This document shows, one piece after another, positions 32,006 to 55,982 of a DNA stretch of 64,000 nt (positions within the stretch are counted from its first letter, which is position 1; each line of letters starts with the position of its first letter). The translations under genes and the position numbers were made by a program. This DNA is from Candidatus Woesearchaeota archaeon. GTDB lineage: Archaea > Nanobdellota > Nanobdellia > Pacearchaeales > GW2011-AR1. Under the pieces are notes generated by a model. That model saw only the letters and a list, made by a program, of their open reading frames with translations. It had not been told where the DNA came from and did not search any database. The DNA is taken from assembly GCA_964533515.1 (NCBI GenBank), contig CAZHMB010000001.1:8640-72639 (forward strand), in the 5' to 3' direction.

Positions 32006-33058
32006 GTGAATCTTATGGTATTTCAACAACCTTTGATAATATTAAGTTTCGTTATTAGTTTTTTAGTTGCATTAGTTGGAACTTTCTTTTGGATTAAAAA
32101 AATGAAGGAAAGGGATTTTTTGTGGGAAGATATGAACAAGCCAGGATATCCTCGAGAAGTTCCGGGTTCGGGAGGGATGGTCGTAATACTTGGTTTCTTG
32201 TTAGGGGTGTTGTATTATGTTGCTATCAGAAGTTTTATCTTCAATGTGAATGACGGAATTTCTGTTAAAATATTTGCCTTGCTTAATGTTCTTCTCATTT
32301 TGGCATTGGTTGGTTTAGTTGACGATTTTTTCCAGATTAAAAAGGCTTTTGGGGGGACAGTCCATGTGGAGGGTTTATCTACTCGATTTAGAATTATTGC
32401 TGCACTACTTGCTGCGATTCCCTTGATTGTTATTAATGCGGGAGTCTCAACCCTTGCAATCCCTTTTTTAGGGAATGTTAACTTTGGGGGGGTGTATCCT
32501 TTAATTTTAATTCCTATAGGAATCGCGGGTTCGACAATTGTTTATAATTTCTTGGCAGGGTTTGACGGATTGGAAGCGGGACAGGGAATCTTGATTTTGG
32601 GCTTTTTGAGTTATATTGCATATTCATCTGGAAATAGCTGGTTAGCTATTGTTGGGTTGTCGATGGTTGCTTCTCTTTTTGGGTTTTGGCTTTTTAATAA
32701 ATTCCCAACAACAATTCTTCCGGGGGACTCTCTTACATGGGGAGTTGGCGCTTTAATTGCATGTATGGCCATTTTGGGAAACTTTGAAAAAATTGCTTTA
32801 ATTGTTTTTATCCCATATATTATTGAATTTTATTTAAAGGCTATTCGTGGCAAGTTTAAATATTATTCATTCGGTTTACCGAATGAAGATGGAAGTTTAG
32901 AAGTCCCTTATGAAAAAATCTACGGATTAACTCACTTTGCTATTTTTTGTTTGAAAAAAATAAAACCTTCGAAAAAAGTCTATAAACAAGATGTTGTCTG
33001 GTTTATACATGGAATACAGCTTATTTTCATATTGATTGCTTGGGCCGTATTTTTATAA
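32006..33058 (+). CDS. aglH: polyprenyl-phosphate HexNAc-1-phosphate transferase (MraY/WecA/AglH family)
   Basis: 350 aa, polytopic. LVGLVDDFFQIKK (DD motif) and NFLAGFDGLEAG (NxxNxxDGxDGL-type motif). Confidence 0.65.
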   Translation: MNLMVFQQPLIILSFVISFLVALVGTFFWIKKMKERDFLWEDMNKPGYPREVPGSGGMVVILGFLLGVLYYVAIRSFIFNVNDGISVKIFALLNVLLILALVGLVDDFFQIKKAFGGTVHVEGLSTRFRIIAALLAAIPLIVINAGVSTLAIPFLGNVNFGGVYPLILIPIGIAGSTIVYNFLAGFDGLEAGQGILILGFLSYIAYSSGNSWLAIVGLSMVASLFGFWLFNKFPTTILPGDSLTWGVGALIACMAILGNFEKIALIVFIPYIIEFYLKAIRGKFKYYSFGLPNEDGSLEVPYEKIYGLTHFAIFCLKKIKPSKKVYKQDVVWFIHGIQLIFILIAWAVFL

Positions 33059-37060: not shown

Positions 37061-37101
37061 CTTATGTAATTAGATAGTAGCTCTCTTTTTTAAATGTTTC
37101 T

Positions 37102-37434: not shown

Positions 37435-37602
37435 AGAAGATTTATAAATTTATTGCAAGGCATAGCCCACCAGTTCTCGCACTTGACTAAGCAGTTATCA
37501 CAATACTAATTTGTCTCTTAGCCAAATGCTCGTCGAACCTTCAGGTTCTCATTCCTAGAATATTTGGTGATACTATTTCGCCTTCGCTCAATAGCATTCG
37601 AA

Positions 37603-37737: not shown

Positions 37738-37779
37738 CTAAAAATTATAAAAAGCGCTTGTTTAAAAAATCTTCTAAAA

Positions 37780-40303: not shown

Positions 40304-40451
40304 GTATGCCGCCCTCTCAAATTGCCGGAGTTTTAATCGATGAGATAAAAATTCCTATCCTCTCAAGGAAAGGCATTTTGTTTTAGCTCCAAAGAATTTT
40401 TCGGGAGCACGGAGAACGGCGGTGACCCGAGTTCGAATCTCGGCGAGGGCG
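40282..40451 (+). tRNA. tRNA-Glu (CUC) with 97-nt intron after position 37
   Basis: Exon 1 (40282..40319): GCCCUCG-UA-GUAC-AGAGGCCAA-GUAU-G-CCGCC-CUCUCA. Exon 2 (40417..40451): C-GGCGG-UGAC-CCGAG-UUCGAAU-CUCGG-CGAGGGC-G. D arm almost identical to tRNA-Gln. TATA tttttaag lies about 27 nt upstream. Confidence 0.7.
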
Positions 40452-40461
40452 TTTTAATCAA

Positions 40462-41130
40462 ATGAAAAATTCTTATGAAAAAAATATCCCTAAGGTCATG
40501 GGTGTTCTAGAAAAACATTTTAATGCATATGAAAGGACAACTTTGAATCGGATGCGAAAACATAAAACTAAATCTCCATTCAAGATTCTTATTTCATGTT
40601 TGTTGAGCTTGAGATCTCGAGACGAAAATACTGAAAAAGTTTCCAAGCAATTATTTCGCATTGCTGACACTCCTAAAAAGATTATTAAACTCCCATTGAA
40701 AAAACTTGAAAAATTAATTTTCAGTTCGGGGCATTATCATAAAAAAGCTTTGACTTTGAAATCTGTTTCAAAAGATTTGATAAAAATTTTCAAAGGAAAA
40801 GTTCCGCAGACACGAGAGGAACTTTTGTCTATGAGAGGAATTGGTCCGAAAACAGCTAATATCGTCTTGAATTTTGCATTTGGCCAATCAGTAATTCCTG
40901 TCGATGTTCATTGCCATAGAATTCCAAATCGTTTGGGCTGGGTTAAAACAAAAACCGCCGAAAAAACAGAGGGAGAACTTGTTAAAACTATTCCTAAAAA
41001 ATATTGGAAAGAGTTCAATGGTGTTTTTGTTCTATTTGGAAGAACAATATGCCAACCCGTTTCTCCCTGGTGTAGCAAATGTCCTGTAAGGAAATATTGT
41101 CCAAGAATCGGTGTTGGAAGAAGTAGGTGA
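40462..41130 (+). CDS. nth: endonuclease III / HhH-GPD DNA glycosylase with [4Fe-4S] cluster loop
   Basis: 222 aa. HhH-GPD region LLSMRGIGPKTANIV plus CQPVSPWCSKCPVRKYC (Cx6Cx2Cx5C). Confidence 0.75.
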   Translation: MKNSYEKNIPKVMGVLEKHFNAYERTTLNRMRKHKTKSPFKILISCLLSLRSRDENTEKVSKQLFRIADTPKKIIKLPLKKLEKLIFSSGHYHKKALTLKSVSKDLIKIFKGKVPQTREELLSMRGIGPKTANIVLNFAFGQSVIPVDVHCHRIPNRLGWVKTKTAEKTEGELVKTIPKKYWKEFNGVFVLFGRTICQPVSPWCSKCPVRKYCPRIGVGRSR

Positions 41131-41147
41131 ATATATATTTTACTAAA

Positions 41148-41876
41148 CTATCTTGCCAAACCTGCCTCGGATAAACTCAATAATCCAATAAAGCTTCTCC
41201 AAACCTTTTTTCTAGAATGTTTAAAATCCGTTGCCAAGCGGTATACCCACTCCAGACCAATGGCCTGAATTAAACCGCTTTGTTCTTTCTTTTTCTCAAG
41301 AAAAAAATCTAATGCTGCCCCGACATTGAGGAACGATGCCCTTCCGGTTCTTTTGAATAGGGCTGATGTTAAAATGTTCTGCTTTGGACAACCGACACCG
41401 ACCCAAACATAATCTATCTTTTTGCTGCGGATTAACCCCACCATCTTATCTATTTCCCCCTCAGAGAACTCTATTCCATTAATAAACGGGGGATTGTAAC
41501 TCCAGATGTTCTGCCTAGATAAATGTGGAAATTTCTTGCTCATTCTCTCCAAATCTTCTTTTTCTAGGCCAATGAATAAATGTTTTTTCCCTCCAGAATA
41601 CTCTGGATTACTTAAAAAGAGCTTTGTAAAAACAGGCCCCCTAAATCGATTAACAGCCCGGAGGTACCTTAAGCCTAAAAATAAAGATACTAAAAATCCA
41701 TCTATAAAATTTATATTTTGCTTCTCTAAAAGAGATTTTCTAAACTGAGGTTCTTTATTAAACCAATATAGATCATGATTATTTAAGAAGTTTAGAGAGC
41801 GTCTTTTTTTCTCTTTCCCTAAACTACTCATAACTCTTTCCCCCCCTTTACTGGTTACAAAAATTAATTTGGGCAT
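41148..41876 (-). CDS. WecB/TagA/CpsF-family glycosyltransferase (GT26)
   Basis: 242 aa. VWVGVGCPKQNIL matches the GLGSPKQE signature of N-acetylmannosaminyl/UDP-ManNAcA transferases. Confidence 0.65.
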   Translation of the reverse strand: MPKLIFVTSKGGERVMSSLGKEKKRRSLNFLNNHDLYWFNKEPQFRKSLLEKQNINFIDGFLVSLFLGLRYLRAVNRFRGPVFTKLFLSNPEYSGGKKHLFIGLEKEDLERMSKKFPHLSRQNIWSYNPPFINGIEFSEGEIDKMVGLIRSKKIDYVWVGVGCPKQNILTSALFKRTGRASFLNVGAALDFFLEKKKEQSGLIQAIGLEWVYRLATDFKHSRKKVWRSFIGLLSLSEAGLAR

Positions 41877-41899
41877 GTTTTTACTGATTAACTAAGGAA

Positions 41900-42886
41900 T
41901 TAATCTTTATTATTCTTTTCTACCTGTTCCTTAATCCAAGCATAAGTTTTTTCCATCCCATTTCTTAAAGGATAGTCTGGGGCCCAGCCAAGTTTTTCCT
42001 TTATTAAAGAATTTTCTGAATTTCTTCCCCTTACTCCTAAGGGACCTTCGATATGCTTTATTAAAATTTTCTTTCCTGCAATTTCTGCAGCCATCTCAGC
42101 TAATCTATTAATAGAAACTTTTTCATCAGAGCCTATATTAACTGGGCCTATGAGGCCAGAGTCCATTAACCTTCTTATACCTTCAAGGCATTCGTCAATA
42201 TATAAAAATGAACGTGTCTGTTCACCATCTCCCCACATCTCCAGTACCCCTCCTTCTGCAGGGGCCATTGCAACCTTTCGGCACATCGCGGCTGGTGCTT
42301 TCTCCCTTCCATCGTTCCAAGAACCTTCTGGACCAAAAATGTTATGAAATCTTGCTATTCTTACTTGTATTCCCTTATTTCTGTAGTAGGAAAGGAACAG
42401 ATGCTCGCTAAATAATTTCTCCCAACCGTATTCGCTGTCGGGATCGGCAGGATAGGCAGCAGATTCTTTTAGGCCAGTTATCCCCGGATCCTCTTGAGCA
42501 TATTCGGGATATACGCACGCAGAAGAAGAATAAAATATTTTTTTTACATTTCTTTTATAAGATTCATCAAGAACGTTTAAATTTATCGTTGCTGAATTGT
42601 GCATTATTTCTGCATCATTCTCTCCAGTAAATACAAATCCTGCCCCCCCCATGTCTGCTGCTAATTGATAAACTTCGTCGAATCCTTGATCGATAACTCT
42701 TTGAACAACATTTAAATCCCTTAAGTCCCCTACAATAAAATCGTCTGCTTCCGTCTTTGCATATCTCGGAAATTTCAAATCTACTCCCCTCACCCAAAAA
42801 CCTTTTTTCTTTAGAAATTTCACTAGGTGACTTCCAATGAAACCTCCAGCTCCACAAACCAACGCTGTTTTTTGTTGTGTTTCCAT
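41900..42886 (-). CDS. NAD-dependent sugar-nucleotide epimerase, GDP-mannose 3,5-epimerase-like (SDR extended family)
   Basis: 328 aa. Rossmann motif GAGGFIGSHL. LAADMGGAGFV and SSACVYPE closely match the GME signatures LAADMGGMGFI and SSACIYPE. Confidence 0.55.
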   Translation of the reverse strand: METQQKTALVCGAGGFIGSHLVKFLKKKGFWVRGVDLKFPRYAKTEADDFIVGDLRDLNVVQRVIDQGFDEVYQLAADMGGAGFVFTGENDAEIMHNSATINLNVLDESYKRNVKKIFYSSSACVYPEYAQEDPGITGLKESAAYPADPDSEYGWEKLFSEHLFLSYYRNKGIQVRIARFHNIFGPEGSWNDGREKAPAAMCRKVAMAPAEGGVLEMWGDGEQTRSFLYIDECLEGIRRLMDSGLIGPVNIGSDEKVSINRLAEMAAEIAGKKILIKHIEGPLGVRGRNSENSLIKEKLGWAPDYPLRNGMEKTYAWIKEQVEKNNKD

Positions 42887-42980
42887 GCTTTAATCAAAAT
42901 AATTCTGTTTATAAAGATTCTGAACTAAAAATATATAGTTAAACTACTTTTATCAAATGAGCAAAGCTTAAATAATTGAA

Positions 42981-43682
42981 TTGGTTTCTGAAAGAATGTT
43001 AGTTGAATGGATACTTGCTAATAGGGAATTGTTGCAGATAGTTTATGCTCTCGTCATCGGTTTTGTGTGCTCGATGATTGTCCTAGAGACTGATAGGATG
43101 TTTAAGATTAGTGATTATCAGGGGCTAAGATATTTTAGAAATTCCTTTTTCTTCTATGGGCTAGCTTTTATAGTTAGATTTATTCTGGGGAATTCTCTTT
43201 TTGTAAATCTGTCTTCTAATTATTTTCTAGGAACAAATTTCTTTTTTGAGTTTTTTATAAATCTTGCAGGTTTATTTTTGCTTTATAGTCTAATATGGAA
43301 AAAGATGGAAACTGAGAAAAAACACCATTCACTTTTGAACATCAATGCGGCAGTTTTGTATCTGGTTGCTTTTCTGATAGCGATGTTGGACCTCATGCTA
43401 GGCACTAATTTGTACCTTTATTCATCTCAAGTAATTCTCTTCTTGATAATGGGAATAATCAGCTATAGAAATTATTCAAAAAACAAAGGTCCGAATAATC
43501 TTTCTAAACTTCATTTTTTTACAATCAGCGTTGGTCTTCTTGTTTGGATTGCTAATTTTGTTGTAAATTATTTCCTCCCCCAAAATAATCCGTTAAAAAT
43601 TGTTGCATACTTTATCAACCTTGTTTTCTTTTTATTATTTCTATATGGAACAATTAAATTGATCCGGAAGAAAAATGGCTAG
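42981..43682 (+). CDS. polytopic membrane protein, hypothetical
   Basis: 233 aa with about 6 TM helices. Confidence 0.35.
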   Translation: MVSERMLVEWILANRELLQIVYALVIGFVCSMIVLETDRMFKISDYQGLRYFRNSFFFYGLAFIVRFILGNSLFVNLSSNYFLGTNFFFEFFINLAGLFLLYSLIWKKMETEKKHHSLLNINAAVLYLVAFLIAMLDLMLGTNLYLYSSQVILFLIMGIISYRNYSKNKGPNNLSKLHFFTISVGLLVWIANFVVNYFLPQNNPLKIVAYFINLVFFLLFLYGTIKLIRKKNG

Positions 43683-43944
43683 AAAGCGAAATCGTTTAGA
43701 GATTATTAGAGACATATTAAAGATAACTAACGAGAAAGGGAGAATTCCTCCCACACGACTAATCCACTCAACAAATTTATCCCCTCAAATGTTCAAAGAG
43801 TATATCTTAGAATTGACAGCCAAGGGACTTATCTTAGAGAAACATGAAAAAAATAAAAGATATTTTGCTTTGACAAAAAAGGGTGTTACTTATTTGGAAG
43901 AGTATCGAGCTTTCTCTAATCTTATCGAGAATTTCGGTTTATAG
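43675..43944 (+). CDS. small winged-helix DNA-binding protein
   Basis: 89 aa with HTH and wing layout. Overlaps the previous ORF by 8 nt. Confidence 0.4.
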   Translation: MARKRNRLEIIRDILKITNEKGRIPPTRLIHSTNLSPQMFKEYILELTAKGLILEKHEKNKRYFALTKKGVTYLEEYRAFSNLIENFGL

Positions 43945-43999: not shown

Positions 44000-46744
44000 A
44001 TGGAAGAAAGTTCAAATCAGATTTTTAATTTTATGAAATCGAAAAAAGGGCAATGGTTATTGGTTGGGATTTTACTTTTAGTTATACTTATCGCAAGTTC
44101 TGCTATAAGGTTACAAAATCTTCCCCTGTTAGTTGATCAGACAACCGGAGAAAATATTCCCCTTGCATTAGATCCTTTTTATTTTTTGAGAATCGCAGAA
44201 ACGCTTGATGCGAACAATGGTCAGCTTCCTGCTATTGATGAAATGAGATATCCTGCTGAATCTCCAACGTTTTTAAAAGAACTCCATCCTTATGCTGTTT
44301 ATTACATCTTCAAAGTAACCAAGATATTTAATCCAGAAATAACTCTCAGGTATATCAATGTTATATCCCCGGTGATATTTTTTGCCTTAGGAATAATTGT
44401 ATTTTTCTTTCTTATCTTAGTATTGACAAAATCTAAAATTACGGCATTGGTCTCCTCCCTACTCCTTTCGTTGATTCCGTCTTATCTCTATAGGACAACG
44501 GCGGGTTTCTCTGATCACGAAGCCTCTGGGATAATTGCTTTTTTTTTGGTTCTTTTGGTTCTCACATTGGGAATGAAATCTTTAGATAAACAAAAAAACG
44601 AGCAAAACTCAAAAAGGAAAATATATTGGAGTTCCTTTTGGGGAATTCTCTTAGGTTTTGTTACTGCTCTGACAATAGCGAGTTGGGGAGGAATTGCAAA
44701 TTATGCCTTCATGATTGTTCCTTTAGCCTTTCTGTTGTTTTGGGTTTTGAAGACTCGGGAAACTGAGCAAACTTCATTTTCCCAGCTTCTTAACTATATT
44801 CTGTTTTATGTCTTGTGGTTGGTCTCTGGAATTTTCCTCTCTTCTCTGTTTGGATTTTCTCCTATAGAAATATTAAATCGGGCTGTATTTGGAACTCAAG
44901 GCCTGCTCACCCTATTTGCGTTGGGTTTTGTTGTTGTTGATGCTTTCTTTATATACTTATTAAGCAAGAAAAGAAGCGTCTGTCCAGAGATAATTAAGAA
45001 GAATGAAAAATTCAGAGTGATCTTTGTTTTGGGAATTGTATTAATTCTCGGTTTGATTGGCTTGCAGATCTTAAAAGGAAGTTTGATAACAGCAATTCAA
45101 GACATCATTAACCTTCTATTGAGGCCTGCTGGAACTGGAAGGCTTTCTGCAACTGTTGCTGAAAATGCTGCCCCTTATTTAAATGATTGGATTTCGCAAG
45201 CGGGCAAATTCTTTTTCTGGGTCTCGTTGATAGGGATTGTCTTTATTGGGTTTAATCTATCTAAAGGGGTTGAGAGTAAAAAAAGTAAAATTCTATTTAA
45301 CTTGCTCTGGATTACACTTATCGTGGGGATATTATTCAGTAGGATCTCTGCTAGTTCTGCTTTGGATGGAGATAACTTTTTGAGCCATTTAGTTTACTTT
45401 GGCAGCATCCTTATCTTTCTTGCGGGGATAATGAAAATTTATTTTAGTTCTCGGATAAAGATTAGACCAGAACTTTTGGTTGTCTCTTCGTGGACCCTTC
45501 TTATGCTAATCTCTGGAAGATCAACAATCAGGGTTTTATTTATAATGACCCCGTTTTTTTGTTTTGCTGGTGCTTACACTTTAATAAACTTTTATTCTCT
45601 CTTTAAGAAGAATAAAGATGAACTGGTAAAAATCTTTTCGATTATTGGAATTATCGTAATTGCAATTATGCTTGTTATAAGCATCGGAAGATTTTATTCA
45701 ACATCGAGTGAACAGGCAAAATACACTGGACCTTCTGCGAATGCTCAATGGCAACAGGCAATGAAATGGGTGAGAGAAAATGCAGGGGAAGACTCTATAT
45801 TTTTACATTGGTGGGATTATGGTTATTGGGTACAAACTCTTGGGGAGAGAAAGACTGTGGCTGATGGGGGTCACACCGAGGGTGAATTTCAAGACCACCT
45901 TATTGGAAGATATGTCCTTACAACCCCCAATCCTAATTCTGCTTTAAGCTATATGAAATCGCACAAGGTTTCTCATTTATTAATTGATCAAACAGATTTA
46001 GGAAAATACGGGGCGTATTCTAGAATTGGCAGCGATGAAACCTTGGAAGATCGGGTAAGTGCTATTCCACTAATGTCCTTAGACCCTAAACAGACTCAAG
46101 AAACTTCAAACGAAACTATTAATGTTTATGTTGGAGCAATGACTGTTGATGAAGACATTATTTACACGCCGGATAATGGGACCCAGATATTTCTACCGGA
46201 CAATCGGGCACTTGTTGTGGGGGTTATAACCAGAACAAAACAAGATTCAGATTCCGGAACTTTGCTTCAGCCAGAAGCTGTTTATATTTATAATAATAAG
46301 CAGTATAGAATTCCTGTTAGATACATCTATTTTCAAGGACAGATAATGGACTTTGGTTCTGGTATCGAGGCTACTTTTATGATTGTCACTTCAGCCCAGC
46401 CCACTGGCCAGAGTGTTAGTATTAACCCTGTTGGAGTTGGAATCTACTTGTCTCCGATGGTCTCTAAATCTCTCTTTGCAAGATTATATTTAATGGACGA
46501 TCCTTTCGAACAATACTCTTCTTTAAAACTCGTCCATGAAGAAAATGACTTTGTCGTTGAAAGTCTGCAACAGCAAGGAGTTATTGAAAATGATCAGGAG
46601 TTTGTATATTACCAAGGTTTTAGGGGACCCATAAAAATATGGGATACGGCAGAGATTCCGGAGAATATTATTGCTTATGAAGAATTAACGGATAGATACT
46701 CTGAAGAATGGGCTAAATTTGACAACTGGGGGTTTATTGAGTAA
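44000..46744 (+). CDS. aglB: archaeal oligosaccharyltransferase AglB (STT3 homologue)
   Basis: 914 aa. 13-TM N-terminal domain. WWDYGYW catalytic motif at HWWDYGYWVQTL. Large C-terminal soluble domain. Confidence 0.85.
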   Translation: MEESSNQIFNFMKSKKGQWLLVGILLLVILIASSAIRLQNLPLLVDQTTGENIPLALDPFYFLRIAETLDANNGQLPAIDEMRYPAESPTFLKELHPYAVYYIFKVTKIFNPEITLRYINVISPVIFFALGIIVFFFLILVLTKSKITALVSSLLLSLIPSYLYRTTAGFSDHEASGIIAFFLVLLVLTLGMKSLDKQKNEQNSKRKIYWSSFWGILLGFVTALTIASWGGIANYAFMIVPLAFLLFWVLKTRETEQTSFSQLLNYILFYVLWLVSGIFLSSLFGFSPIEILNRAVFGTQGLLTLFALGFVVVDAFFIYLLSKKRSVCPEIIKKNEKFRVIFVLGIVLILGLIGLQILKGSLITAIQDIINLLLRPAGTGRLSATVAENAAPYLNDWISQAGKFFFWVSLIGIVFIGFNLSKGVESKKSKILFNLLWITLIVGILFSRISASSALDGDNFLSHLVYFGSILIFLAGIMKIYFSSRIKIRPELLVVSSWTLLMLISGRSTIRVLFIMTPFFCFAGAYTLINFYSLFKKNKDELVKIFSIIGIIVIAIMLVISIGRFYSTSSEQAKYTGPSANAQWQQAMKWVRENAGEDSIFLHWWDYGYWVQTLGERKTVADGGHTEGEFQDHLIGRYVLTTPNPNSALSYMKSHKVSHLLIDQTDLGKYGAYSRIGSDETLEDRVSAIPLMSLDPKQTQETSNETINVYVGAMTVDEDIIYTPDNGTQIFLPDNRALVVGVITRTKQDSDSGTLLQPEAVYIYNNKQYRIPVRYIYFQGQIMDFGSGIEATFMIVTSAQPTGQSVSINPVGVGIYLSPMVSKSLFARLYLMDDPFEQYSSLKLVHEENDFVVESLQQQGVIENDQEFVYYQGFRGPIKIWDTAEIPENIIAYEELTDRYSEEWAKFDNWGFIE

Positions 46745-47088
46745 TGGAAACCTCGATATACATAATTCTAATTGTCTTAATATGCGCGCTTCTTGGTGCG
46801 ACGGGGCAAATTATGTTTAAGCTCTCGGCAGACAAATTTTCGTTTAATCCGCTGACCTGGCTCAAAAACTGGCATTTTCTTGTAGGGGTTTTACTTTATG
46901 GTTCCTCAGCAATTTTATTTGTTTGGAGTTTGAAACACGGAGATCTATCAATATTATATCCTATAATAGCAACAAGTTATATCTGGGTTGTTTTGCTTGC
47001 CACATTTATATTAAAAGAGGATTTTCCAATAGTTAAGTGGCTTGGAGTTATTCTTATTCTATTGGGAATTGTGGTGATAACGAAATAA
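46744..47088 (+). CDS. SMR/EamA-like 4-TM small membrane protein (ArnE/ArnF-like flippase subunit candidate)
   Basis: 114 aa with four TM helices. ATGA overlap with the aglB stop. Confidence 0.5.
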   Translation: METSIYIILIVLICALLGATGQIMFKLSADKFSFNPLTWLKNWHFLVGVLLYGSSAILFVWSLKHGDLSILYPIIATSYIWVVLLATFILKEDFPIVKWLGVILILLGIVVITK

Positions 47089-47798
47089 TGCAAAAGGAAA
47101 AATTATCTCTTATAATCCCTGTGTATAACGAAGAAGAGAGTCTTAGGAATCTTATAAAAAAAGTTTTGGAAGTTAAGCTTCCCTTAGAAAGAGAGATTAT
47201 TATCGTCGACGATTGTTCGAAAGACGATAGTTATAAAATTGCTTTGGAACTTTCGGAGAAAAATAAAAGAATTAAATTAATAAAACATGGAAAAAATATT
47301 GGGAAAGGCGGGGCAATAAGAACCGGTTTGAAAAATGTCGGGGGAACAATAATTGGAATTCAGGACGCCGATTTAGAATACAATCCGAAGGAGTATTCAA
47401 AACTTATAAAGCCGATTTTGGAAAATAAAACAAAAATCGTTTATGGATCTAGATTTCTAGGAAAGAAAGGGTCACAAGGTTCCTTTATATTTTATATGGG
47501 AAATAGAGCTCTTTCTTGGACTACTGGCTTGTTGTATGGGCAAAAAATAACAGATATGGAAACCTGCTACAAATTTTATAGGAGAGAACTCTTGAAAAAA
47601 ATAAAGTTAAAATCCGATGGTTTTGATATCGAGCCGGAGATAACCGCGAAATTTTTAAAGTGTGGATATAAAATATTGGAAGTTCCAATAACTTATCTGC
47701 CCCGTACGAAAAAAGATGGCAAAAAGATTAAGGTAAAGGATGGTTTTGTTGCACTTTGGGTTTTATTGAAACAGAAGTTTGAGAGAATTAATTATTAA
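47088..47798 (+). CDS. GT2 polyprenyl-phosphate glycosyltransferase (DPM1/ArnC/AglD-like)
   Basis: Start moved to MQKEKLSLIIPVYNEE (TAATG overlap). IIVDDCSKDDS, GKGGAIRTG and IQDADLEY are GT2 DxD and acceptor motifs. Confidence 0.7.
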   Translation: MQKEKLSLIIPVYNEEESLRNLIKKVLEVKLPLEREIIIVDDCSKDDSYKIALELSEKNKRIKLIKHGKNIGKGGAIRTGLKNVGGTIIGIQDADLEYNPKEYSKLIKPILENKTKIVYGSRFLGKKGSQGSFIFYMGNRALSWTTGLLYGQKITDMETCYKFYRRELLKKIKLKSDGFDIEPEITAKFLKCGYKILEVPITYLPRTKKDGKKIKVKDGFVALWVLLKQKFERINY

Positions 47799-49320
47799 GA
47801 TATTGTGCAGTAATATCTTTTACTCCAAAAATAAGTGCGGTGGAATTTTCATAATCTTCACTTCCTAGCCCAAATTTTGGACTTTGCTCCTTATTAATTA
47901 GATTTACTAAAATAGTTATCCCTATTGGTCTTCCTTGAGGGGTTCTTGAATTGATAATAATTTTTCCGGATTCCCCCTGCATATATGGGCCGGTTAACCA
48001 GGGGTGCAAATTGTCGGCAAAGATAAAAATATTTTCCTTGGAGAGGGATTCTTGCAAAAGCCAATTTACCCCTTCACTATAATACATAAGATCTTTATTG
48101 TTTGAATAAAGAGAATATACTGCAACGTCAGGAACTACGTAAATGGAACCTTTAGGTAGATTTACATCGGCCCATGATACGGCATCTCTTACAGAATCAT
48201 ATCTGCTTATTGTCTTAATTGTTGTTTCTTGATTAATAATTCCGGAGAAAAGTATAACCATCTGAATAACTAGGATAACCAAAAGGATGATTACTATTAA
48301 TTTATTTTTTGTTTTTGTTTTTCTAGTAAATCTTTCAGTGAAGAAGACAATGCCAAAAGAACAGAAAAGAGAGATTACTGGAAGGATGCTTGCATAAAAC
48401 CTGAAGATTCCACCCCCCCACCAAATAGAATGAATAATAAAATAAACAAAAAGCCAGACTAGAAACATTTTTGCAAGATTATTTTTTGACTTTATCAGAG
48501 ATAAAATCCCCATTAAAGAGAATGTGGAAAATAGGGGGCCCAAATAAAAGAAAAGTTTTGAAAAAGAGACTAACCCCTTGAAAAAGCCAACATTAAATTG
48601 ATTTGAATAAGAAGTATAAAATGGATTATGGAAGGCCATAAAGTTTCTAATCAACCAAGGACTCACAACTAAAATCCCAAGAAAGATTCCAATCAGAAAT
48701 TTATCTGAGAGGATAATCTCTTTTGTTCTCTTAAAATTTCTTAACAAAAGATATAACATTGGAAGTATCAGGAATGCCCCCGGATAACGAATTAAAATGC
48801 AATACGCCAAGGTGGGAAATGCTAGAAGGAAATATTTGGTGTTTTCAAATCCTTTTGCAAAGAGAAATAGGCCCAATAACGAAAAGAACATGAAGGGCAT
48901 CTCAGTCATGACTGATACTGAATTGAATAAAAAAAGATTGTGGGCCGCGAGTAAAAAGGCTGCAATTAATCCCACTTCCTTAGAGAAAGATTTTCCTACG
49001 TTGTAAGTCAAAACAATTGTAAGAAGCGCCAAGATTCCCATTAAGATTAATCCTGCAAGTTGAACATTCCCTAGCAACAGGTAAAAAGGCAGAATCAAAA
49101 CCGGTAACCCTGGGGGGTATTGGGAATGGGGATAAACTCCTTCAAGAGTATAGCCATTTCCGTCCGCAAGATTTTTTGCTAAAGACATTTGCCAATGGGA
49201 ATCTTGTGCCCATTGAGTTCCTGTTTGAGAGGCTAAATAAACCCAAACCAAGAGAAAAATAATGCAGATCCCTAACAAGAGTAAGTTCTCTCGAGATTTA
49301 TACTTTGAAAAATTAAACAT
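47788..49320 (-). CDS. GT-C fold glycosyltransferase, PMT/ArnT-like (PMT_2 family)
   Basis: 510 aa with about 12 TM helices. N-terminal loop WQMSLAKNLADGNGYTLEGVYPHSQYPPGLPVLI resembles the ArnT/PMT first periplasmic loop. Confidence 0.45.
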   Translation of the reverse strand: MFNFSKYKSRENLLLLGICIIFLLVWVYLASQTGTQWAQDSHWQMSLAKNLADGNGYTLEGVYPHSQYPPGLPVLILPFYLLLGNVQLAGLILMGILALLTIVLTYNVGKSFSKEVGLIAAFLLAAHNLFLFNSVSVMTEMPFMFFSLLGLFLFAKGFENTKYFLLAFPTLAYCILIRYPGAFLILPMLYLLLRNFKRTKEIILSDKFLIGIFLGILVVSPWLIRNFMAFHNPFYTSYSNQFNVGFFKGLVSFSKLFFYLGPLFSTFSLMGILSLIKSKNNLAKMFLVWLFVYFIIHSIWWGGGIFRFYASILPVISLFCSFGIVFFTERFTRKTKTKNKLIVIILLVILVIQMVILFSGIINQETTIKTISRYDSVRDAVSWADVNLPKGSIYVVPDVAVYSLYSNNKDLMYYSEGVNWLLQESLSKENIFIFADNLHPWLTGPYMQGESGKIIINSRTPQGRPIGITILVNLINKEQSPKFGLGSEDYENSTALIFGVKDITAQYLNN

Positions 49321-49376: not shown

Positions 49377-49889
49377 ATGGGACTAAAATTAAACCTTGGA
49401 GGTGGGCCAAACAAATTAAAGGGGTACGTCAATTGTGATTGGTGCAAAGATATTGGAGTAGATAAAGTCTTTGACATGAATAAAATGCCTTGGGCATTCG
49501 ATGATAACTCAGTTAGTGAGATTGTGATGTGCCATGTTTTGGAACATTTTCATGAGCCAATAAAAATACTAAAAGAAATTTATAGAATTTGTGAGAATGG
49601 AGCGATTATTAAAATAAATGTCCCTTATTTTTCACACGAAAGTGCCTATTCCATGCTGGATCATTACCACCAATTTACTTGGACGAGTTTTGATGCTTTG
49701 GATCCTAAACACCCTTGCCATTGGCAATCTATCGGAAAATTTAAAACAATAAAGAAAAAATTGTTGTGGAGAAAACAGATGAAATTTTGTGAGCTAATTT
49801 TTAATAGAATGCCTCGAATTTATCAAGAAGTTTTCTGCTGGATTTTCCCTGCAAAAGATCTATACATTGAACTTGGAGTGGTGAAATGA
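49377..49889 (+). CDS. class I SAM-dependent methyltransferase (small, paralog set A)
   Basis: 170 aa. Motif I LNLGGGPN..GYVNCD, post-I acidic residue, VLEHF. Confidence 0.6.
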   Translation: MGLKLNLGGGPNKLKGYVNCDWCKDIGVDKVFDMNKMPWAFDDNSVSEIVMCHVLEHFHEPIKILKEIYRICENGAIIKINVPYFSHESAYSMLDHYHQFTWTSFDALDPKHPCHWQSIGKFKTIKKKLLWRKQMKFCELIFNRMPRIYQEVFCWIFPAKDLYIELGVVK

Positions 49890-49943
49890 AGGCTATGAAG
49901 ATTCATCCGCAAAAGGTAAAAGGAATTATTCATAGTGAATTTT

Positions 49944-50087
49944 TTATTTAAAGATAATCCAGTCGGTTCCATATCCCCATACTACCTTTTTACCTATAGA
50001 TTCACCAAATTGATTTACGGCATTGATAACATCTCTAAAAAATTCTACATAATCATGCCCAGAGATAATGCCACCTTTTTTAATGTT
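49944..50087 (-). pseudogene. C-terminal remnant of a class I methyltransferase (…KGGIISGHDYVEFF…), no start codon
   Basis: Minus-strand frame gives NIKKGGIISGHDYVEFFRDVINAVNQFGESIGKKVVWGYGTDWIIFK*, directly preceded by an in-frame stop. The GG-I-I-x-x-D-Y segment is the typical C-terminal beta-strand of TylF/class-I methyltransferases. Confidence 0.4.
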
Positions 50088-51183
50088 TCAAATAGGTCTT
50101 TGTGAAGAATCGTCCAAAGATGTTTACAAAAGACCTCTTGATAATCTTTAGTGTCCTTATTCTTACCAATCTCTCCATTGTCCTCGTTTTTATATCCTTT
50201 ACAGAATACCTTTTCCTGCACAATTCACAAGAATCGCATAGTCCCTTTATTCCTCCGCTCTCTATACTTTTTAATGCCCTCTCATGATTCTCTTTGAACA
50301 AGGAAGCGTAATCATCTTTAAGAAGATTACCCAAAATGCCTTTCAATCCGTAATCCATACAACACACAGTCACATCTCCAGATGGTAGCAATATATTTCG
50401 TTGAAGAAGTGGACTATCTGCACAATAATATTCTCCACTTCTTTTCTCAAACTCGGTGAACTCTTTTACATTTGACCTATTTTCTATTATGCCTTTTACC
50501 ACTTTTACTTTACATCTTTTTAGAATATTTATAATATCCTTGTGTATGGTGTCAAAATAAACTAGACTAAACTTATCCTTATCTACCCTATTTGTGGGCT
50601 GATTCTTTAGAATAAACTCTAATAACTCTAGATAATCATTGTCTACATTAATCCTTGTTTTATCCTCATTGTCTGGGATATGAATAGTAAAAAAGAAGAA
50701 TGGCAAGTCTTTTAGACGAAGATAGTCTTTCTTCGTTAATCCCACTAGTGTTGTATATATAGATACATTGTCATGTCCTTCAGAAAAAGTATGTAATATC
50801 ATTTCTGTGCAATCCGGATTTAAGAATGGTTCCGCCATTCCTGCGAAGTTGATTGTAATATCTTTGGGTATTTTGGATAGACATGTTTTAAAATTATCTA
50901 AAGTAAGAACCATTTCATTTGATCTTTTTAAATAATTATTAATAAGTAATTTTTGTGGACAATAGGAACAATTATTTCTACATCCAATTCTTGTTGTAAT
51001 GTCCATTCCTTTTTTACTATCTGGTTTTGCTTTCGTCTTCTTGGCTGTCTCGCTTTGCAAGCCACCGGTTCCACCCCGACGATTTTCGTGTTTATGAGAA
51101 CTATCCCCACTTATTACACTACCCCTTTTCGCACCAAAGCCCTCTAGCCCTCCAGCTTGCAACACTTCTTCGTTTCCTTCCAT
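50080..51183 (-). CDS. radical SAM protein with C-terminal SPASM/twitch-like Cys cluster
   Basis: CX3CX2C at GCRNNCSYCP. C-terminal CCMDYG...CDSCELC. The first 60 aa, up to MDITTRIG, form a GC-rich Gly/Arg-rich extension. The true start may be Met60, near 51006. Confidence 0.65.
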   Translation of the reverse strand: MEGNEEVLQAGGLEGFGAKRGSVISGDSSHKHENRRGGTGGLQSETAKKTKAKPDSKKGMDITTRIGCRNNCSYCPQKLLINNYLKRSNEMVLTLDNFKTCLSKIPKDITINFAGMAEPFLNPDCTEMILHTFSEGHDNVSIYTTLVGLTKKDYLRLKDLPFFFFTIHIPDNEDKTRINVDNDYLELLEFILKNQPTNRVDKDKFSLVYFDTIHKDIINILKRCKVKVVKGIIENRSNVKEFTEFEKRSGEYYCADSPLLQRNILLPSGDVTVCCMDYGLKGILGNLLKDDYASLFKENHERALKSIESGGIKGLCDSCELCRKRYSVKDIKTRTMERLVRIRTLKIIKRSFVNIFGRFFTKTYLKH

Positions 51184-51306
51184 AAAATAATTGTCTAAAT
51201 AAACTTTATAAATCTAACTTTTTCATCTATTCTCCTGTAGCCCCTTTTTGACATTTCATAATTTTAAAAAGGTAATGGGATGCAACTATTTTTCAGTTTT
51301 AATTAA

Positions 51307-52248
51307 TTACCAGGCAGAGTAGAAAGATTGCCGGATACCAGATTCAAATTTTCCACTGGCCGACCCATGTTCAAAAAAAGGGGGGTGCGCATGCCTGCAA
51401 TCAGTGGTGATATTTTCAGCTAATTGCATAATAAACAACTTGTTAAGAAGCCAGTCAGAACCAAGATATCTCAGAGATGGATTTTTTGTTAAGAAGTGAT
51501 TAAATATCATCAACTGTTTTTTATTCAGAAGATAGCAACAAGTGGTATTAGTGGCCGGTCTTGAGTAATGTCTGAATTCAGCAGACCTTCGAGTCTCTAA
51601 CTCGCCAAGCCCCAAAGAGTCTAAGTCAAAGCCCCCACCTAAATCCATATACAAAGGACTTTTTGTGGTGTTCTTAAGTTGTAACAATAGATTATGCAAT
51701 TTTATAACAGAGTCCTTTTTGAAGATAGCGTCATCTTCAAAAACCAACAGGTAGTCAGTATTTCCATATAAAGAATTATCTATGGCACTCAGATGTTTAT
51801 TCGATAGTATCATTTCTATTGCACAAGATTTTAACCACCCACGTAAACGTCTAGGATGAGAATATTTGATAATTGATTTAATAACAAACTTCGCGAAATG
51901 AAAGGGCAAAAAGGGATTTCTAACCTTTCTATATCTCGCCCATTCTCTGTCTAGTTTCCAGTACATAATGTCTCTAAAGATGCCCATCTTTAAACTCACC
52001 GGCCTTATTTTGGGTTGGTATCCGATTTCATCTATTGTTGTTTCTATATTAGGAGTAAGTTTTTTGGAAAGAGAGGCTATGTTGGGCCTTATTTTATTCA
52101 GCCGGGCCTTATCATTATTATGGATTAGTGCAATCGTCAGTTTTATTTTTCTAAAAGACTCCCGGTCATTATTCAGATGGCCCATACAAATCAGGCAATT
52201 TACCCCTTTATATATTTTAGGGTCAATCACCTTTACTGTACAATCCAC
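51307..52248 (-). CDS. putative GT-A-like glycosyltransferase / hypothetical
   Basis: 313 aa. DxD-like LLVFEDDAIF. Sits inside the glycan cluster. Confidence 0.35.
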   Translation of the reverse strand: MDCTVKVIDPKIYKGVNCLICMGHLNNDRESFRKIKLTIALIHNNDKARLNKIRPNIASLSKKLTPNIETTIDEIGYQPKIRPVSLKMGIFRDIMYWKLDREWARYRKVRNPFLPFHFAKFVIKSIIKYSHPRRLRGWLKSCAIEMILSNKHLSAIDNSLYGNTDYLLVFEDDAIFKKDSVIKLHNLLLQLKNTTKSPLYMDLGGGFDLDSLGLGELETRRSAEFRHYSRPATNTTCCYLLNKKQLMIFNHFLTKNPSLRYLGSDWLLNKLFIMQLAENITTDCRHAHPPFFEHGSASGKFESGIRQSFYSAW

Positions 52249-52313
52249 GGGCAGATGTCCCTTGCCTCTACAGTAAAAAAAAGATTTATAAATATGTTTA
52301 AATTTGAGAGTCT

Positions 52314-53369
52314 ATGAAAATCAGAGAAGTATTTAATTCAGATAAACTTCTTGCAATAGCCCCCTTTGTTGCAAAATATACATCTAAATATGGAACAATA
52401 TTATATGATCTAAAAAGTTTAATACATTCCCATATCCTAAAAACAAAGATTACTAAAGAACCAAATATGAAAGATGTTATTAAAAATGGGCTCCTAATAG
52501 GAACGACAACAATATGTAATGGTAATTGTACCTTTTGCCCATATAGATATTTTGAAGATAAGAAAGAGTCTATGGATTTTAATACATTTAAAAAAATAAT
52601 TGATGATTACTATTCATGTGGAGGGAGAAAAGTAGAATTAACTCCAACCCAGGGAGAGCCATTGCTTGATAGGGGATTTTTCGAAAAAATAAAATACCTA
52701 AACAAAAAAGGTATTTCTTGTACATTTTGCACAAACGGCATCTTGTTAGAAAGAAACATAGAAAAACTTATAAAATTAAAAGTGAAAGATATAGCGATAG
52801 ATATTGGGGACATAATACCCGAAAATGACTCTAAGGTTTTTCAAATACCAATAGAATTGTCTAAAAAGAAAATTAATTCAATTCTAAAGTTACTAGAGAG
52901 AGCAAAAGAAACTGGGTGGGATGCTAGAATTTCCATCTTTTTTAGACCACTAAGAAGCCCATCAAAAGTTTTTAAAGATTTAAAGAAGTCTAAATTTTGG
53001 AAGTATTATAAAGAAGGATTATTATATTTTCAATTTTTGCAAGTATACGATAACTGGGGTGGAAGTATTACAAAAAAAGATTTGATAGGAAATCAGGAGC
53101 TTAAAAGACCAACAGGTATAAGAAAATTTCCCTGTGCTAATTTCTATAAATTGGCTTTTCTTCCCAATGGCGACGCTAGGGTCTGTGGATGTCGTTGTGA
53201 TAAAACACTTAAAGATGATTTGGTTGTTGGAAACATAAATGAAATAAGTCTAAAGGATATTATAAAATCAAAGAGATGGAAAGACATTATCAAAAACAGT
53301 AAAGGGGGGGAACTTCCAAGCGTATGCAAAAAGTGTAGCTTTTTTGAACCAATATTTAAAAATGATTAA
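52314..53369 (+). CDS. radical SAM protein with SPASM/twitch-like C-terminal Cys cluster (paralog of 50080..51183)
   Basis: 351 aa. CX3CX2C at CNGNCTFCPY. C-terminal CGCRCD...CKKCSFF. Confidence 0.65.
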   Translation: MKIREVFNSDKLLAIAPFVAKYTSKYGTILYDLKSLIHSHILKTKITKEPNMKDVIKNGLLIGTTTICNGNCTFCPYRYFEDKKESMDFNTFKKIIDDYYSCGGRKVELTPTQGEPLLDRGFFEKIKYLNKKGISCTFCTNGILLERNIEKLIKLKVKDIAIDIGDIIPENDSKVFQIPIELSKKKINSILKLLERAKETGWDARISIFFRPLRSPSKVFKDLKKSKFWKYYKEGLLYFQFLQVYDNWGGSITKKDLIGNQELKRPTGIRKFPCANFYKLAFLPNGDARVCGCRCDKTLKDDLVVGNINEISLKDIIKSKRWKDIIKNSKGGELPSVCKKCSFFEPIFKND

Positions 53370-53458
53370 ATTGTCAAAACGTTTAGAAAAAAATAGAACT
53401 AATAATAAAAAATGGGGAAAATCAGAGTTTCTCTGATTAGGAATAAAAAGGAAATTAC

Positions 53459-55431: not shown

Positions 55432-55432
55432 G

Positions 55433-55981
55433 ATGAAATTGAATTTGGGTTGTGGAAGGGAAACGATAAGAGGGTATGTTAATTGCGATATCTCCAAGGA
55501 CGTAAATCCCGACAAGGTTGTTGACTTAGAAAAAAAGTTACCTTTCAAAGATAATTCTGTGGAGGAAGTAGTAATTAACCACGTACTTGAACATATAATA
55601 AACTTTATTCCATTAATGCATGAGCTTCGGAGAATATGCGGGCCCGGTGCAAGAATTTATGCAAGGGTTCCATTTTATAGCTCATGGTCCCAGTTTACCG
55701 ATCCTACCCATGTTAGATTTTTTACTCCAAGAACATTTGACTATTTTAAGAAAGGGGAGCTGGGTCATGAGGCAGGTGCAAATGAAGATTTGTTTATAGT
55801 TAAAAAGGTTAAGATTAATTTTTTCTTTGGGAAGATGGCCATACTGAATCCCATAATAAATCCCCTAATCAATCTTAGTCAAAGAGCTTACTGTAGACTT
55901 TTTGCTTGGACTTTTCCAGCATCAGAGATTTGTTACGAATTAGAGGTTGTTAAAAATAAATCCATAAAAGAAAAAGATTAA
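55433..55981 (+). CDS. class I SAM-dependent methyltransferase (paralog set A)
   Basis: 182 aa. MKLNLGCGRETIRGYVNCD...VLEHI. Clear paralog of 49377..49889 and 58367..58864. Confidence 0.6.
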   Translation: MKLNLGCGRETIRGYVNCDISKDVNPDKVVDLEKKLPFKDNSVEEVVINHVLEHIINFIPLMHELRRICGPGARIYARVPFYSSWSQFTDPTHVRFFTPRTFDYFKKGELGHEAGANEDLFIVKKVKINFFFGKMAILNPIINPLINLSQRAYCRLFAWTFPASEICYELEVVKNKSIKEKD

Positions 55982-55982
55982 G

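What the first reader, a model, noticed from the sequence alone, without database searches (positions are those of the whole stretch)
44000..49320. Arn-like triad next to AglB: SMR-type 4-TM protein, GT2 polyprenyl-phosphate sugar synthase and a GT-C PMT/ArnT-like transferase
Directly downstream of the oligosaccharyltransferase aglB, and translationally coupled to it (ATGA and TAATG overlaps), lie a 114-aa SMR/EamA-like membrane protein and a DPM1/ArnC-like GT2. A 510-aa 12-TM GT-C enzyme converges on them. This mirrors the bacterial ArnC-ArnE/F-ArnT logic: make a lipid-P-sugar, flip it, then transfer it to an acceptor. It also mirrors eukaryotic DPM1-PMT O-mannosylation. Pairing it with AglB suggests a second, AglB-independent glycosylation route in this archaeon, for example O-glycosylation of surface proteins or lipid head-group glycosylation.
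Basis: partly seen in the sequence, partly recalled or inferred. Interest (0 to 1): 0.7.

Follow-up and report, generated by a model that had tools for sequence, protein, structure and literature searches.

The report
Archaeal lipid-sugar glycosylation trio beside AglB
Next to the N-glycosylation enzyme AglB, this DPANN archaeon carries a conserved three-gene set predicted to make a lipid-linked sugar, flip it across the membrane and attach it outside the cell; this is an archaeal version of a known bacterial scheme, and it offers a concrete candidate for the still-unidentified archaeal lipid-sugar flippase.

Summary
aglB (44000-46744), a 114-aa 4-helix EamA/ArnE-F-like protein (46744-47088) and a membrane-anchor-less DPM1/GtrB/ArnC-like GT2 (47088-47798) are joined by two TAATG overlaps. 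A 510-aa GT-C enzyme (47788-49320, minus strand) converges on them with an 11-nt overlap.

Family scans, structure models and fold searches confirm all four assignments. The EamA-GT2-GT-C trio recurs in Woese-/Pacearchaeota, Bathyarchaeia and Aenigmarchaeota. In 34 metagenome loci of this EamA subfamily, a GT2 lies within 150 nt in 27 and aglB is adjacent in only 6. A natural GT2::GT-C fusion also exists.

It is therefore an autonomous three-component, extracytoplasmic glycosylation module. Its logic matches bacterial Gtr/Arn-type systems and Haloferax AglD/AglR/AglS, and in this lineage it is hooked onto the aglB operon.

The sugar and the acceptor are unknown. Post-transfer decoration of AglB-installed N-glycans, which has a Haloferax precedent, is at least as likely.

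This is a new variant of a known kind and of moderate interest. Its main value is the small EamA/TMEM234-family protein as a testable dolichol-phosphate-sugar flippase candidate.

The parts
44000..46744 (+). aglB, the archaeal oligosaccharyltransferase (914 aa) and first gene of the co-directional run
   Evidence: Pfam STT3 1.5e-19 and STT3-PglB_core 6e-7. NCBIfam archaeo_STT3 1.2e-30, below its cutoff. WWDYG at residue 604. Its stop overlaps the next start as TAATG.
46744..47088 (+). 114-aa, 4-helix EamA/ArnE-F-like membrane protein; candidate dolichol-phosphate-sugar flippase (probably a dimer)
47088..47798 (+). 236-aa GT2 with no TM segment; candidate dolichol-phosphate monosaccharide synthase
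   Evidence: Glycos_transf_2 1.6e-34. Best solved relatives are P. furiosus Dol-P-Man synthase 5mlz at 1.2e-22, GtrB sll0501 at 7.8e-15 and ArnC at 1e-14. Best NCBIfam hit is AglJ at 2.6e-32, below its cutoff. D93xD95, G120xR122 and D156 are invariant in orthologues. No hydrophobic segment.
47788..49320 (-). 510-aa GT-C glycosyltransferase of the PMT_2 type with a 150-aa C-terminal outside domain; the transferase step
49377..49889 (+). 170-aa class-I methyltransferase, divergent neighbour of the GT-C gene; a conserved accessory gene of uncertain role
   Evidence: Methyltransf_11 1.4e-6. An orthologue sits in the same position in L002/L004 (60% identity), L006 (73%) and L008 (54%) and in the JGI contig.
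32006..33058 (+). aglH-like Glycos_transf_4 phosphosugar transferase; the likely initiating enzyme of the AglB pathway (context, not part of the trio)
   Evidence: Pfam PF00953 1.9e-25. It is 52% identical to the gene that sits immediately upstream of aglB in L002.

Best explanation
The three genes after aglB form a three-component, extracytoplasmic glycosylation module. I put about 0.75 on this module logic.

Step 1 (inferred from homology): the soluble GT2 transfers one sugar from a nucleotide sugar to dolichol phosphate at the inner face of the membrane.

Step 2 (inferred from homology to ArnE/ArnF and from gene linkage): the 4-helix EamA-type protein, acting as a dimer, moves the Dol-P-sugar to the outer face. 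It may also hold the anchor-less GT2 at the membrane.

Step 3 (fold shown by modelling, chemistry inferred): the GT-C enzyme uses Dol-P-sugar outside the cell, with Asp40 in its first external loop as the likely catalytic residue, to add that single sugar to a surface acceptor.

In this Woese-/Pacearchaeota lineage the module is translationally coupled to aglB. I therefore favour, at about 0.4, an N-glycan already placed on surface proteins by AglB as the acceptor, as with AglD/AglR/AglS in Haloferax volcanii. Direct O-glycosylation of Ser/Thr is the main alternative.
For: - Part identities.
- Tight coupling: two TAATG overlaps and an 11-nt convergent overlap.
- The trio is conserved with the same convergent layout in 7 relatives at 38-63% protein identity. 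It stays together where aglB has moved 5-7 kb away (L003, L005).
- The trio also occurs without aglB in Bathyarchaeia (L014) and Aenigmarchaeota (L015), and next to a true PMT-type enzyme in L019.
- Of the 80 metagenome loci, 34 belong to this EamA subfamily. A GT2 lies within 150 nt in 27 of them and within 3 kb in 30. Of the 25 with at least 2.5 kb of flank, at least 15 have a GT-C-like protein within 3 kb.
- A natural GT2::GT-C fusion (P0059, 760 aa) aligns to both window proteins.
- The EamA partner is well conserved (100-120 bits) while the GT-C partner changes subfamily. This is the pattern of conserved GtrA/GtrB plus a variable GtrC.
- All 33 EamA homologues hit ArnE/ArnF best, and only 1 of 33 hits the SMR drug-pump family.
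- An aglH-like initiating enzyme is present separately, so the GT2 is not needed to start the N-glycan.
- Precedents: bacterial three-component systems with a 4-TM EmrE/ArnE-like flippase (PMC11127046) and AglD/AglR/AglS (PMC3871713).
Against: - No activity, sugar or acceptor has been shown, and the organism is an uncultured DPANN archaeon.
- All NCBIfam hits (AglJ, ArnC, ArnE, ArnF) are far below their equivalog cutoffs.
- Two of the four Dol-P phosphate-binding residues of PfDPMS (Arg131 and Lys178) are not conserved in the phmmer alignment.
- Flippase activity has not been demonstrated directly even for ArnE/F-like or GtrA proteins in most systems.
- A more distant branch of the same small-protein family occurs as tandem pairs beside secDF, with no GT2 or GT-C. 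The family is therefore not universally tied to glycosylation.
- aglB is adjacent in only 6 of 34 metagenome loci, so the AglB link is lineage-specific. That weakens the N-glycan-acceptor preference.
- I could not obtain the AglS sequence for a direct comparison.
Confidence: 0.6

Rival explanations
1. The trio is a second, AglB-independent route in which the GT-C enzyme works like a protein O-mannosyltransferase. It puts a sugar from Dol-P-sugar directly on Ser/Thr of secreted proteins, or on a membrane lipid.
For: - The trio exists without aglB in other phyla, and aglB is adjacent in only 6 of 34 loci.
- In L014 a 1165-aa anchored surface protein lies directly upstream.
- The enzymes of archaeal O-glycosylation are unidentified (PMC6098224), so the niche is open.
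Against: - There is no MIR domain, and the protein is only 510 aa.
- The PMT 'DE' motif is 'DS' here.
- The GT-C partner is highly variable and this subfamily is tiny: 35 representatives at E<=1e-30. That is typical of acceptor-glycan-specific decorating enzymes, not of conserved protein O-mannosyltransferases.
- Translational coupling to aglB points to the same pathway.
- Archaea have no lipid A, so an ArnT-type target is unknown.
Confidence: 0.25
2. The GT2 is an AglJ/AglK-type initiating enzyme. It makes the Dol-P-linked first sugar of the N-glycan that AglB itself transfers. The small protein flips that donor for AglB, and the GT-C gene is a separate neighbour.
For: - The best NCBIfam hit of the GT2 is AglJ (2.6e-32).
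- The GT2 and the small protein are translationally coupled to aglB.
- Characterized archaeal N-glycans are assembled on dolichol monophosphate (abstract of PMC4476749, listed).
Against: - The AglJ score is 112 bits against a cutoff of 325.
- An aglH-like initiating transferase is present, and in L002 it sits right next to aglB.
- The GT2 and EamA genes travel with the GT-C gene, not with aglB, when the genes are rearranged or in other phyla.
- A GT2::GT-C fusion exists.
Confidence: 0.1
3. The 4-helix protein is not a flippase. It is the membrane anchor or activator of the anchor-less GT2, like DPM3/DPM2 for human DPM1. Flipping is done by something else or is spontaneous. This rival is not exclusive of the main model.
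For: - The GT2 has no hydrophobic segment, and its orthologues are all about 230-257 aa.
- The two genes overlap or abut in 27 of 34 loci, in either order.
- In P. furiosus the synthase carries its own 4-helix TM domain (PMC12992685).
Against: - The protein has the SMR/DMT transporter fold and is homologous to ArnE/ArnF, not to DPM2/DPM3 or the GtrA-like domain of PfDPMS.
- In L016 and L019 it sits beside a GT-C gene with no adjacent GT2.
- No EamA::GT2 fusion was seen among 62 plus 120 listed homologues.
Confidence: 0.15
4. The neighbours are functionally unrelated. The small protein is an ordinary small-molecule or drug exporter, and the gene order is inherited synteny.
For: - It has the same fold as the SMR exporter Gdx.
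- A distant branch of the family sits beside secDF with no glycosylation genes.
Against: - TM1 has no acidic residue.
- Only 1 of 33 homologues hits the SMR family.
- The linkage to GT2 and GT-C persists across phyla and gene orders.
Confidence: 0.03

Closest known systems
Bacterial three-component periplasmic glycosylation systems (GtrA/GtrB/GtrC; ArnC/ArnE-ArnF/ArnT; Citrobacter youngae ORF15/ORF14/ORF12)
   Same: The division of labour is the same: a GT2 polyprenyl-phosphate sugar synthase, a small 4-TM flippase candidate and a GT-C transferase acting outside the membrane (PMC11127046). The small protein is homologous to ArnE/ArnF, as is C. youngae ORF14. The synthase and flippase are conserved while the GT-C is variable, as with GtrA/B versus GtrC.
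   Different: - The host is archaeal, so the carrier is presumably dolichol phosphate.
- The GT2 lacks the two C-terminal TM helices of GtrB/ArnC.
- There is a single small gene, so presumably a homodimer, rather than the ArnE/ArnF pair.
- The module is fused into the aglB operon.
- The acceptor cannot be lipid A, O-antigen or teichoic acid.
Haloferax volcanii AglD / AglR / AglS (final mannose of the N-linked pentasaccharide)
   Same: In this archaeal system a Dol-P-sugar is made inside, moved across the membrane and added outside to an N-glycan that AglB has already transferred. aglR and aglS lie in the aglB gene cluster; aglD does not (PMC3871713).
   Different: AglR resembles Agl15, a proposed flippase of lipid-linked oligosaccharides. 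That it is Wzx-like rather than a 4-TM EamA protein rests on my own knowledge. The Dol-P-Man translocator there is still called unidentified (PMC12992685). AglD is membrane-anchored (my own knowledge), whereas this GT2 is not. I could not obtain the AglS sequence, so homology of the GT-C enzymes was not tested.
Eukaryotic DPM1-PMT and actinobacterial Ppm1-Pmt protein O-mannosylation
   Same: A DPM1-like GT2 is paired with a PMT/PMT_2-type GT-C enzyme. The anchor-less synthase resembles human DPM1.
   Different: There is no MIR domain, the protein is 510 aa, and 'DS' replaces the 'DE' motif. No protein acceptor is shown. The flippase of the eukaryotic pathway is unknown.
Pyrococcus furiosus type-III Dol-P-Man synthase (PDB 5MLZ)
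   Same: It is the closest solved relative of the GT2 (1.2e-22). The DAD metal motif and the SR(Y/F) arginine are conserved. In PfDPMS a 4-helix TM module attached to the synthase is proposed to translocate the product.
   Different: Here the catalytic domain stands alone, and the 4-helix partner is a separate gene of a different (EamA/DMT) family. The motif reads DADLEYNP rather than DADxQHPP, and Lys178 is replaced by Asp.

Membership tests
Three-component (Gtr/Arn-type) extracytoplasmic glycosylation system | GT2-family polyprenyl-phosphate monosaccharide synthase | tested here: met
   Met at the homology level only. The best solved relatives are PfDPMS, GtrB and ArnC. DxD and GxR are invariant. 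Enzyme activity was not testable.
Three-component (Gtr/Arn-type) extracytoplasmic glycosylation system | Small multi-TM flippase candidate encoded with the synthase | tested here: met
   It is a 4-TM protein with the SMR/DMT fold. ArnE/ArnF are the best NCBIfam hits in 33/33 homologues. A GT2 is adjacent in 27/34 loci.
Three-component (Gtr/Arn-type) extracytoplasmic glycosylation system | GT-C fold transferase with an acidic residue in the first outside loop | tested here: met
Three-component (Gtr/Arn-type) extracytoplasmic glycosylation system | Lipid-linked monosaccharide is actually flipped and transferred to a defined acceptor | not testable with these tools
   Needs biochemistry or genetics.
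ArnE/ArnF (Und-P-Ara4N flippase) equivalogs | Score above the NCBIfam equivalog cutoff; two paralogous subunits encoded in tandem | tested here: not met
   ArnE scores 36 bits against a cutoff of 92, and ArnF 33 against 99. The window has a single gene. It is related to ArnE/ArnF but is not an ArnE/ArnF orthologue.
SMR drug/cation exporters (EmrE/Gdx type) | Conserved membrane-embedded Glu in TM1 and a match to Pfam Multi_Drug_Res | tested here: not met
EamA / DMT superfamily, TMEM234 family | Pfam PF00892 / PF10639 above the gathering score | tested here: met
   EamA scores 40.5 against 28.2, and TMEM234 33.5 against 30.1. Across 33 homologues, EamA is hit by 33/33 and TMEM234 by 32/33 at E<=0.01.
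Type-III Dol-P-Man synthase (PfDPMS) | Catalytic domain fused to a 4-helix GtrA-like TM domain; DADxQHPP motif; Arg117, Arg131, Ser135, Lys178 | tested here: not met
   There is no TM segment. The motif reads DADLEYNP. The Arg117 equivalent is present, but Lys178 aligns to Asp.
Protein O-mannosyltransferase (PMT, GT39) | Pfam PMT domain, Asp-Glu motif in loop 1, MIR domain in a lumenal loop | tested here: not met
   The PMT domain is met (31.7 bits against 22.7). Loop 1 has Q-D-S, not D-E. There is no MIR hit, and the protein is only 510 aa.
Oligosaccharyltransferase (STT3/AglB/PglB) | WWDxG motif in the C-terminal domain | tested here: not met
Haloferax AglS (Dol-P-Man:N-glycan mannosyltransferase) | Sequence or structural homology to HVO_1526 | not tested
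   Neither the AglS paper (PMC3510580) nor its sequence was available in the held collections.

The most novel reading that the evidence does not exclude
The 114-aa EamA/TMEM234-family protein is the long-sought dolichol-phosphate-monosaccharide flippase of archaea, working in a complex with an anchor-less DPM1-like synthase. Its eukaryotic Pfam relatives, the orphan TMEM234 proteins, would then do the same job for Dol-P-Man or Dol-P-Glc in the ER, a step whose protein is still unidentified.
Probability: 0.1. Interest if true: 0.85.

Novelty: new variant of a known kind. Interest (0 to 1): 0.45.

Why it matters
1. It gives DPANN archaea, whose surface biology is almost unknown, a concrete and conserved outside-the-membrane glycosylation step tied to AglB.

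2. It names a specific small protein family as the candidate Dol-P-sugar translocator in archaea. A 2026 paper still describes that step as carried out by an unidentified protein (PMC12992685). The family also matches the orphan eukaryotic TMEM234 family, whose physiological role is unknown (PMC9333335). The idea can be tested with scramblase assays or knock-outs.

3. If the acceptor were Ser/Thr, this would be the first candidate enzyme for archaeal O-glycosylation. That pathway had no identified components as of 2018 (PMC6098224).

4. Otherwise this is an expected extension of a well-known bacterial scheme to archaea.

Tried and rejected
- Default hmmsearch filters missed the divergent GT-C partners. 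Running with --max, jackhmmer and hhalign recovered them.
- The afdb50 fold library was not available.
- The AglS paper was not held, and a search for HVO_1526 found no relevant paper. The AglS sequence was therefore unavailable and direct comparison was impossible.
- I considered the GT-C protein as a second, divergent AglB, because AfAglB is its best fold match. I rejected this because it has no WWDxG.
- I considered the small protein as an SMR drug pump and rejected it.
- I considered the GT2 as a type-III DPMS and rejected it because it has no TM domain.
- I considered the adjacency as mere inherited synteny near secY. I rejected this because the trio survives rearrangement (L003, L005, L015) and occurs in Bathyarchaeia and Aenigmarchaeota.
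- I looked for EamA::GT2 fusions and found none. A GT2::GT-C fusion was found instead.

Full report
**What is in the sequence**

The window is low-GC (about 35%). It carries an archaeal ribosomal-protein/secY block; SecY at 27168-28661 is 73% identical to that of a Pacearchaeota MAG. The relatives of the flagged genes come from Candidatus Pacearchaeota and Woesearchaeota genomes. The source is therefore an uncultured DPANN archaeon.

At the flagged coordinates there are four ORFs:
- 44000-46744(+), 914 aa
- 46744-47088(+), 114 aa
- 47088-47798(+), 236 aa
- 47788-49320(-), 510 aa

Both co-directional junctions read TAATG with a one-base overlap. The last two genes converge with an 11-nt overlap. 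The third gene starts at the ATG at 47088, as in its orthologues, not at the upstream GTG that the mechanical ORF list gives.

**The parts**

*AglB.* The 914-aa protein matches STT3 and the STT3/PglB core and has WWDYG at residue 604.

*The small membrane protein.* The 114-aa protein passes the Pfam gathering scores of both EamA and TMEM234.
- Its best NCBIfam models are ArnE and ArnF, but far below their equivalog cutoffs.
- The same holds for all 33 homologues tested, whereas only 1 of 33 touches the SMR drug-pump family.
- TM1 carries no acidic residue. Q22 and K26 are invariant instead. It therefore has the SMR/DMT fold without the hallmark of proton-coupled SMR exporters.

*The GT2.* The 236-aa protein is a GT2.
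- Its closest solved relatives are exactly the polyprenyl-phosphate sugar synthases: P. furiosus Dol-P-Man synthase (1.2e-22), GtrB (7.8e-15) and ArnC (1e-14).
- The DxD motif and the GxR arginine are invariant in orthologues.
- It has no hydrophobic segment, unlike GtrB, ArnC or PfDPMS.
- It keeps the DAD motif and the SR(Y/F) arginine. In the phmmer alignment it does not keep PfDPMS Lys178 or Arg131. The sugar cannot be named.

*The GT-C enzyme.* The 510-aa protein passes the gathering scores of PMT_2 and PMT.
- It lacks WWDxG, so it is not an oligosaccharyltransferase.
- In the 12 close homologues, Q39-D40 just after TM1 is invariant, as are T139-E140-x-P-F, R178-Y179 and R307-F308-Y309.
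- The K/R distribution gives N-in/C-out and hence 11 or 13 TM helices, not 12.

**Conservation**

The GT-C subfamily is small. There are 12 close relatives in the 5.8-billion-protein collection. Among the 1.84 billion cluster representatives, 35 match at E<=1e-30, against 14,077 for the wider PMT_2-like superfamily.

In every relative with enough flank (L002/L004, L003, L005, L006, L007, L009 and a JGI contig), the order EamA-GT2 with a convergent GT-C is kept, at 38-63% protein identity.
- aglB is directly upstream in the window, L002/L004, L006, L009 and the JGI contig.
- In L007 a 195-aa methyltransferase is inserted between aglB and the small gene.
- In L003 and L005 aglB has moved 5-7 kb away while the trio stays intact.

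The small protein has a much wider family: at least 1372 profile hits, all stand-alone proteins of about 112-128 aa among those listed.
- In Bathyarchaeia (L014) the order is EamA-GT2-175 aa-PMT. In Aenigmarchaeota (L015) it is GT2-EamA-525-aa multi-TM protein. Neither has aglB within 7 kb.
- L016 and L019 pair the small protein with PMT_2/PMT enzymes.

I then fetched 80 metagenome loci and scored their neighbours.
- In the 34 loci of the window's subfamily (single gene, 45-66% identity), a GT2 lies within 150 nt in 27 and within 3 kb in 30.
- Among the 25 of these with at least 2.5 kb of flank, at least 15 have a GT-C-like protein within 3 kb.
- aglB is adjacent in 6.

Of 22 multi-TM neighbours, 9 match PMT_2. 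A Pfam-less group of four is homologous to the window's GT-C family by profile-profile comparison (95% probability, E 2e-8), with the same conserved D, TE, RY and W..N positions.

The EamA partner scores 100-120 bits across these loci, while the GT-C partner changes subfamily. A natural 760-aa GT2::GT-C fusion (P0059) aligns to both window proteins. Its "DE" aligns with D40, and TE-PFMFF is conserved.

A more distant branch of the small-protein family (35-47% identity) behaves differently. It occurs as tandem pairs beside secDF without GT2 or GT-C.

**Interpretation**

The anatomy and linkage fit a three-component extracytoplasmic glycosylation module:
1. The GT2 charges dolichol phosphate with one sugar on the inside.
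2. The EamA-type dimer translocates it.
3. The GT-C enzyme transfers it outside.

These steps are inferred from homology and gene linkage; none is shown. The logic is that of bacterial GtrA/B/C, ArnC/EF/T and the C. youngae system, whose flippase candidate is also a 4-TM EmrE/ArnE-like protein (PMC11127046).

The archaeal precedent is AglD/AglR/AglS of Haloferax volcanii. [quoted passage not shown]

An aglH-like initiating transferase is present separately. It lies at 32006-33058 in the window and directly next to aglB in L002. The GT2 is therefore not needed to start the AglB donor, and it travels with the GT-C gene rather than with aglB.

**Acceptor**

The acceptor is the open point.
- Translational coupling to aglB, the location at the edge of a variable island of methyltransferases, radical-SAM enzymes and GT4s, and the fast-changing GT-C partner all favour decoration of a glycan, most simply the AglB-installed N-glycan. 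I put this at about 0.4.
The module is autonomous in other phyla, PMT-type domains are detected, and archaeal O-glycosylation enzymes are unknown (PMC6098224). However, there is no MIR domain and no DE motif.
- A role of the small protein as membrane anchor for the anchor-less GT2 is a non-exclusive alternative.

**Comparison and novelty**

All four families are known, and the three-step logic is well established in bacteria and has one archaeal example. Four things are new:
- the archaeal use of an ArnE/F-like EamA protein with an anchor-less DPM1-like synthase;
- the conserved trio across several archaeal phyla;
- its fusion to the aglB operon in Woese-/Pacearchaeota;
- a narrow new GT-C subfamily.

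My literature searches found no description of this. I rate it a new variant of a known kind, with interest 0.45.

The most novel reading not excluded concerns the small-protein family. It also matches the orphan eukaryotic TMEM234 family and could be the missing Dol-P-monosaccharide flippase (PMC12992685). I give the eukaryotic extension about 0.1.

Noticed in passing
window 49377-59959: An island of at least six small class-I methyltransferase genes, several of them paralogues of the 170-aa one. It also holds two radical-SAM/SPASM genes (50080-51183, 52314-53369), a GT4 (53459-54568; a second GT4 lies just beyond at 60088-61182) and three ORFs with no Pfam hit (51307-52248, 54565-55431, 57488-58375). 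Part of it (MT-GT4-288 aa) recurs in a JGI contig. It probably tailors the glycan.
   Followed up: partly
L002 9090-10502 (and L004): In this Pacearchaeota relative the trio's GT2 is replaced by a 470-aa methyltransferase::GT2 fusion. It is only 32% identical to the window GT2, while AglB, EamA and GT-C stay orthologous. This looks like a swap of the donor-making enzyme.
   Followed up: partly
window 33113-43944: Relative to L002, where aglH is immediately upstream of aglB, the window has about 11 kb inserted between the aglH-like gene and aglB. The insert holds PheRS alpha and beta, a PLD-like protein, an alpha/beta hydrolase, an EndoIII-like gene (not scanned), a WecG/TagA-type GT (41148-41876), an NAD epimerase (41900-42886), a 233-aa multi-TM protein with no Pfam hit and an overlapping 89-aa wHTH protein.
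   Followed up: partly
L018 6001-6734; also about 37 of the 80 metagenome loci (L052-L099): A more distant branch of the small EamA family occurs as two tandem genes (127 + 116 aa), like arnE/arnF. In L018 they lie directly downstream of secD/secF; most other such loci have multi-TM neighbours of SecD/SecF size. None has a GT-C within 3 kb and only 1 has an adjacent GT2. Function unknown.
   Followed up: partly
L014 3433-6930: In the Bathyarchaeia locus, a 1165-aa protein with an N-terminal hydrophobic (signal-like) segment, a C-terminal TM anchor and 15 N-x-S/T sites lies immediately upstream of the EamA-GT2-PMT trio. It is a possible acceptor protein.
   Followed up: no
L015 2719-4296, L022 2627-4096, L026 7294-8877, L030 7288-8826: A group of multi-TM proteins of about 490-530 aa next to the EamA gene has no Pfam match. 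It is homologous to the window's GT-C family by hhalign (95%, E 2e-8), so it is probably an undescribed GT-C family.
   Followed up: partly
window 50080-51183: The radical-SAM ORF has a 60-residue Gly/Lys-rich N-terminal extension before the CxxxCxxC region. The true start may be further downstream.
   Followed up: no
window 10249-10986 and 10912-11063: A mechanical 245-aa ORF overlaps tRNA-Cys (10912-10984), with tRNA-Arg right beside it. The upstream end of that ORF is probably not coding.
   Followed up: no
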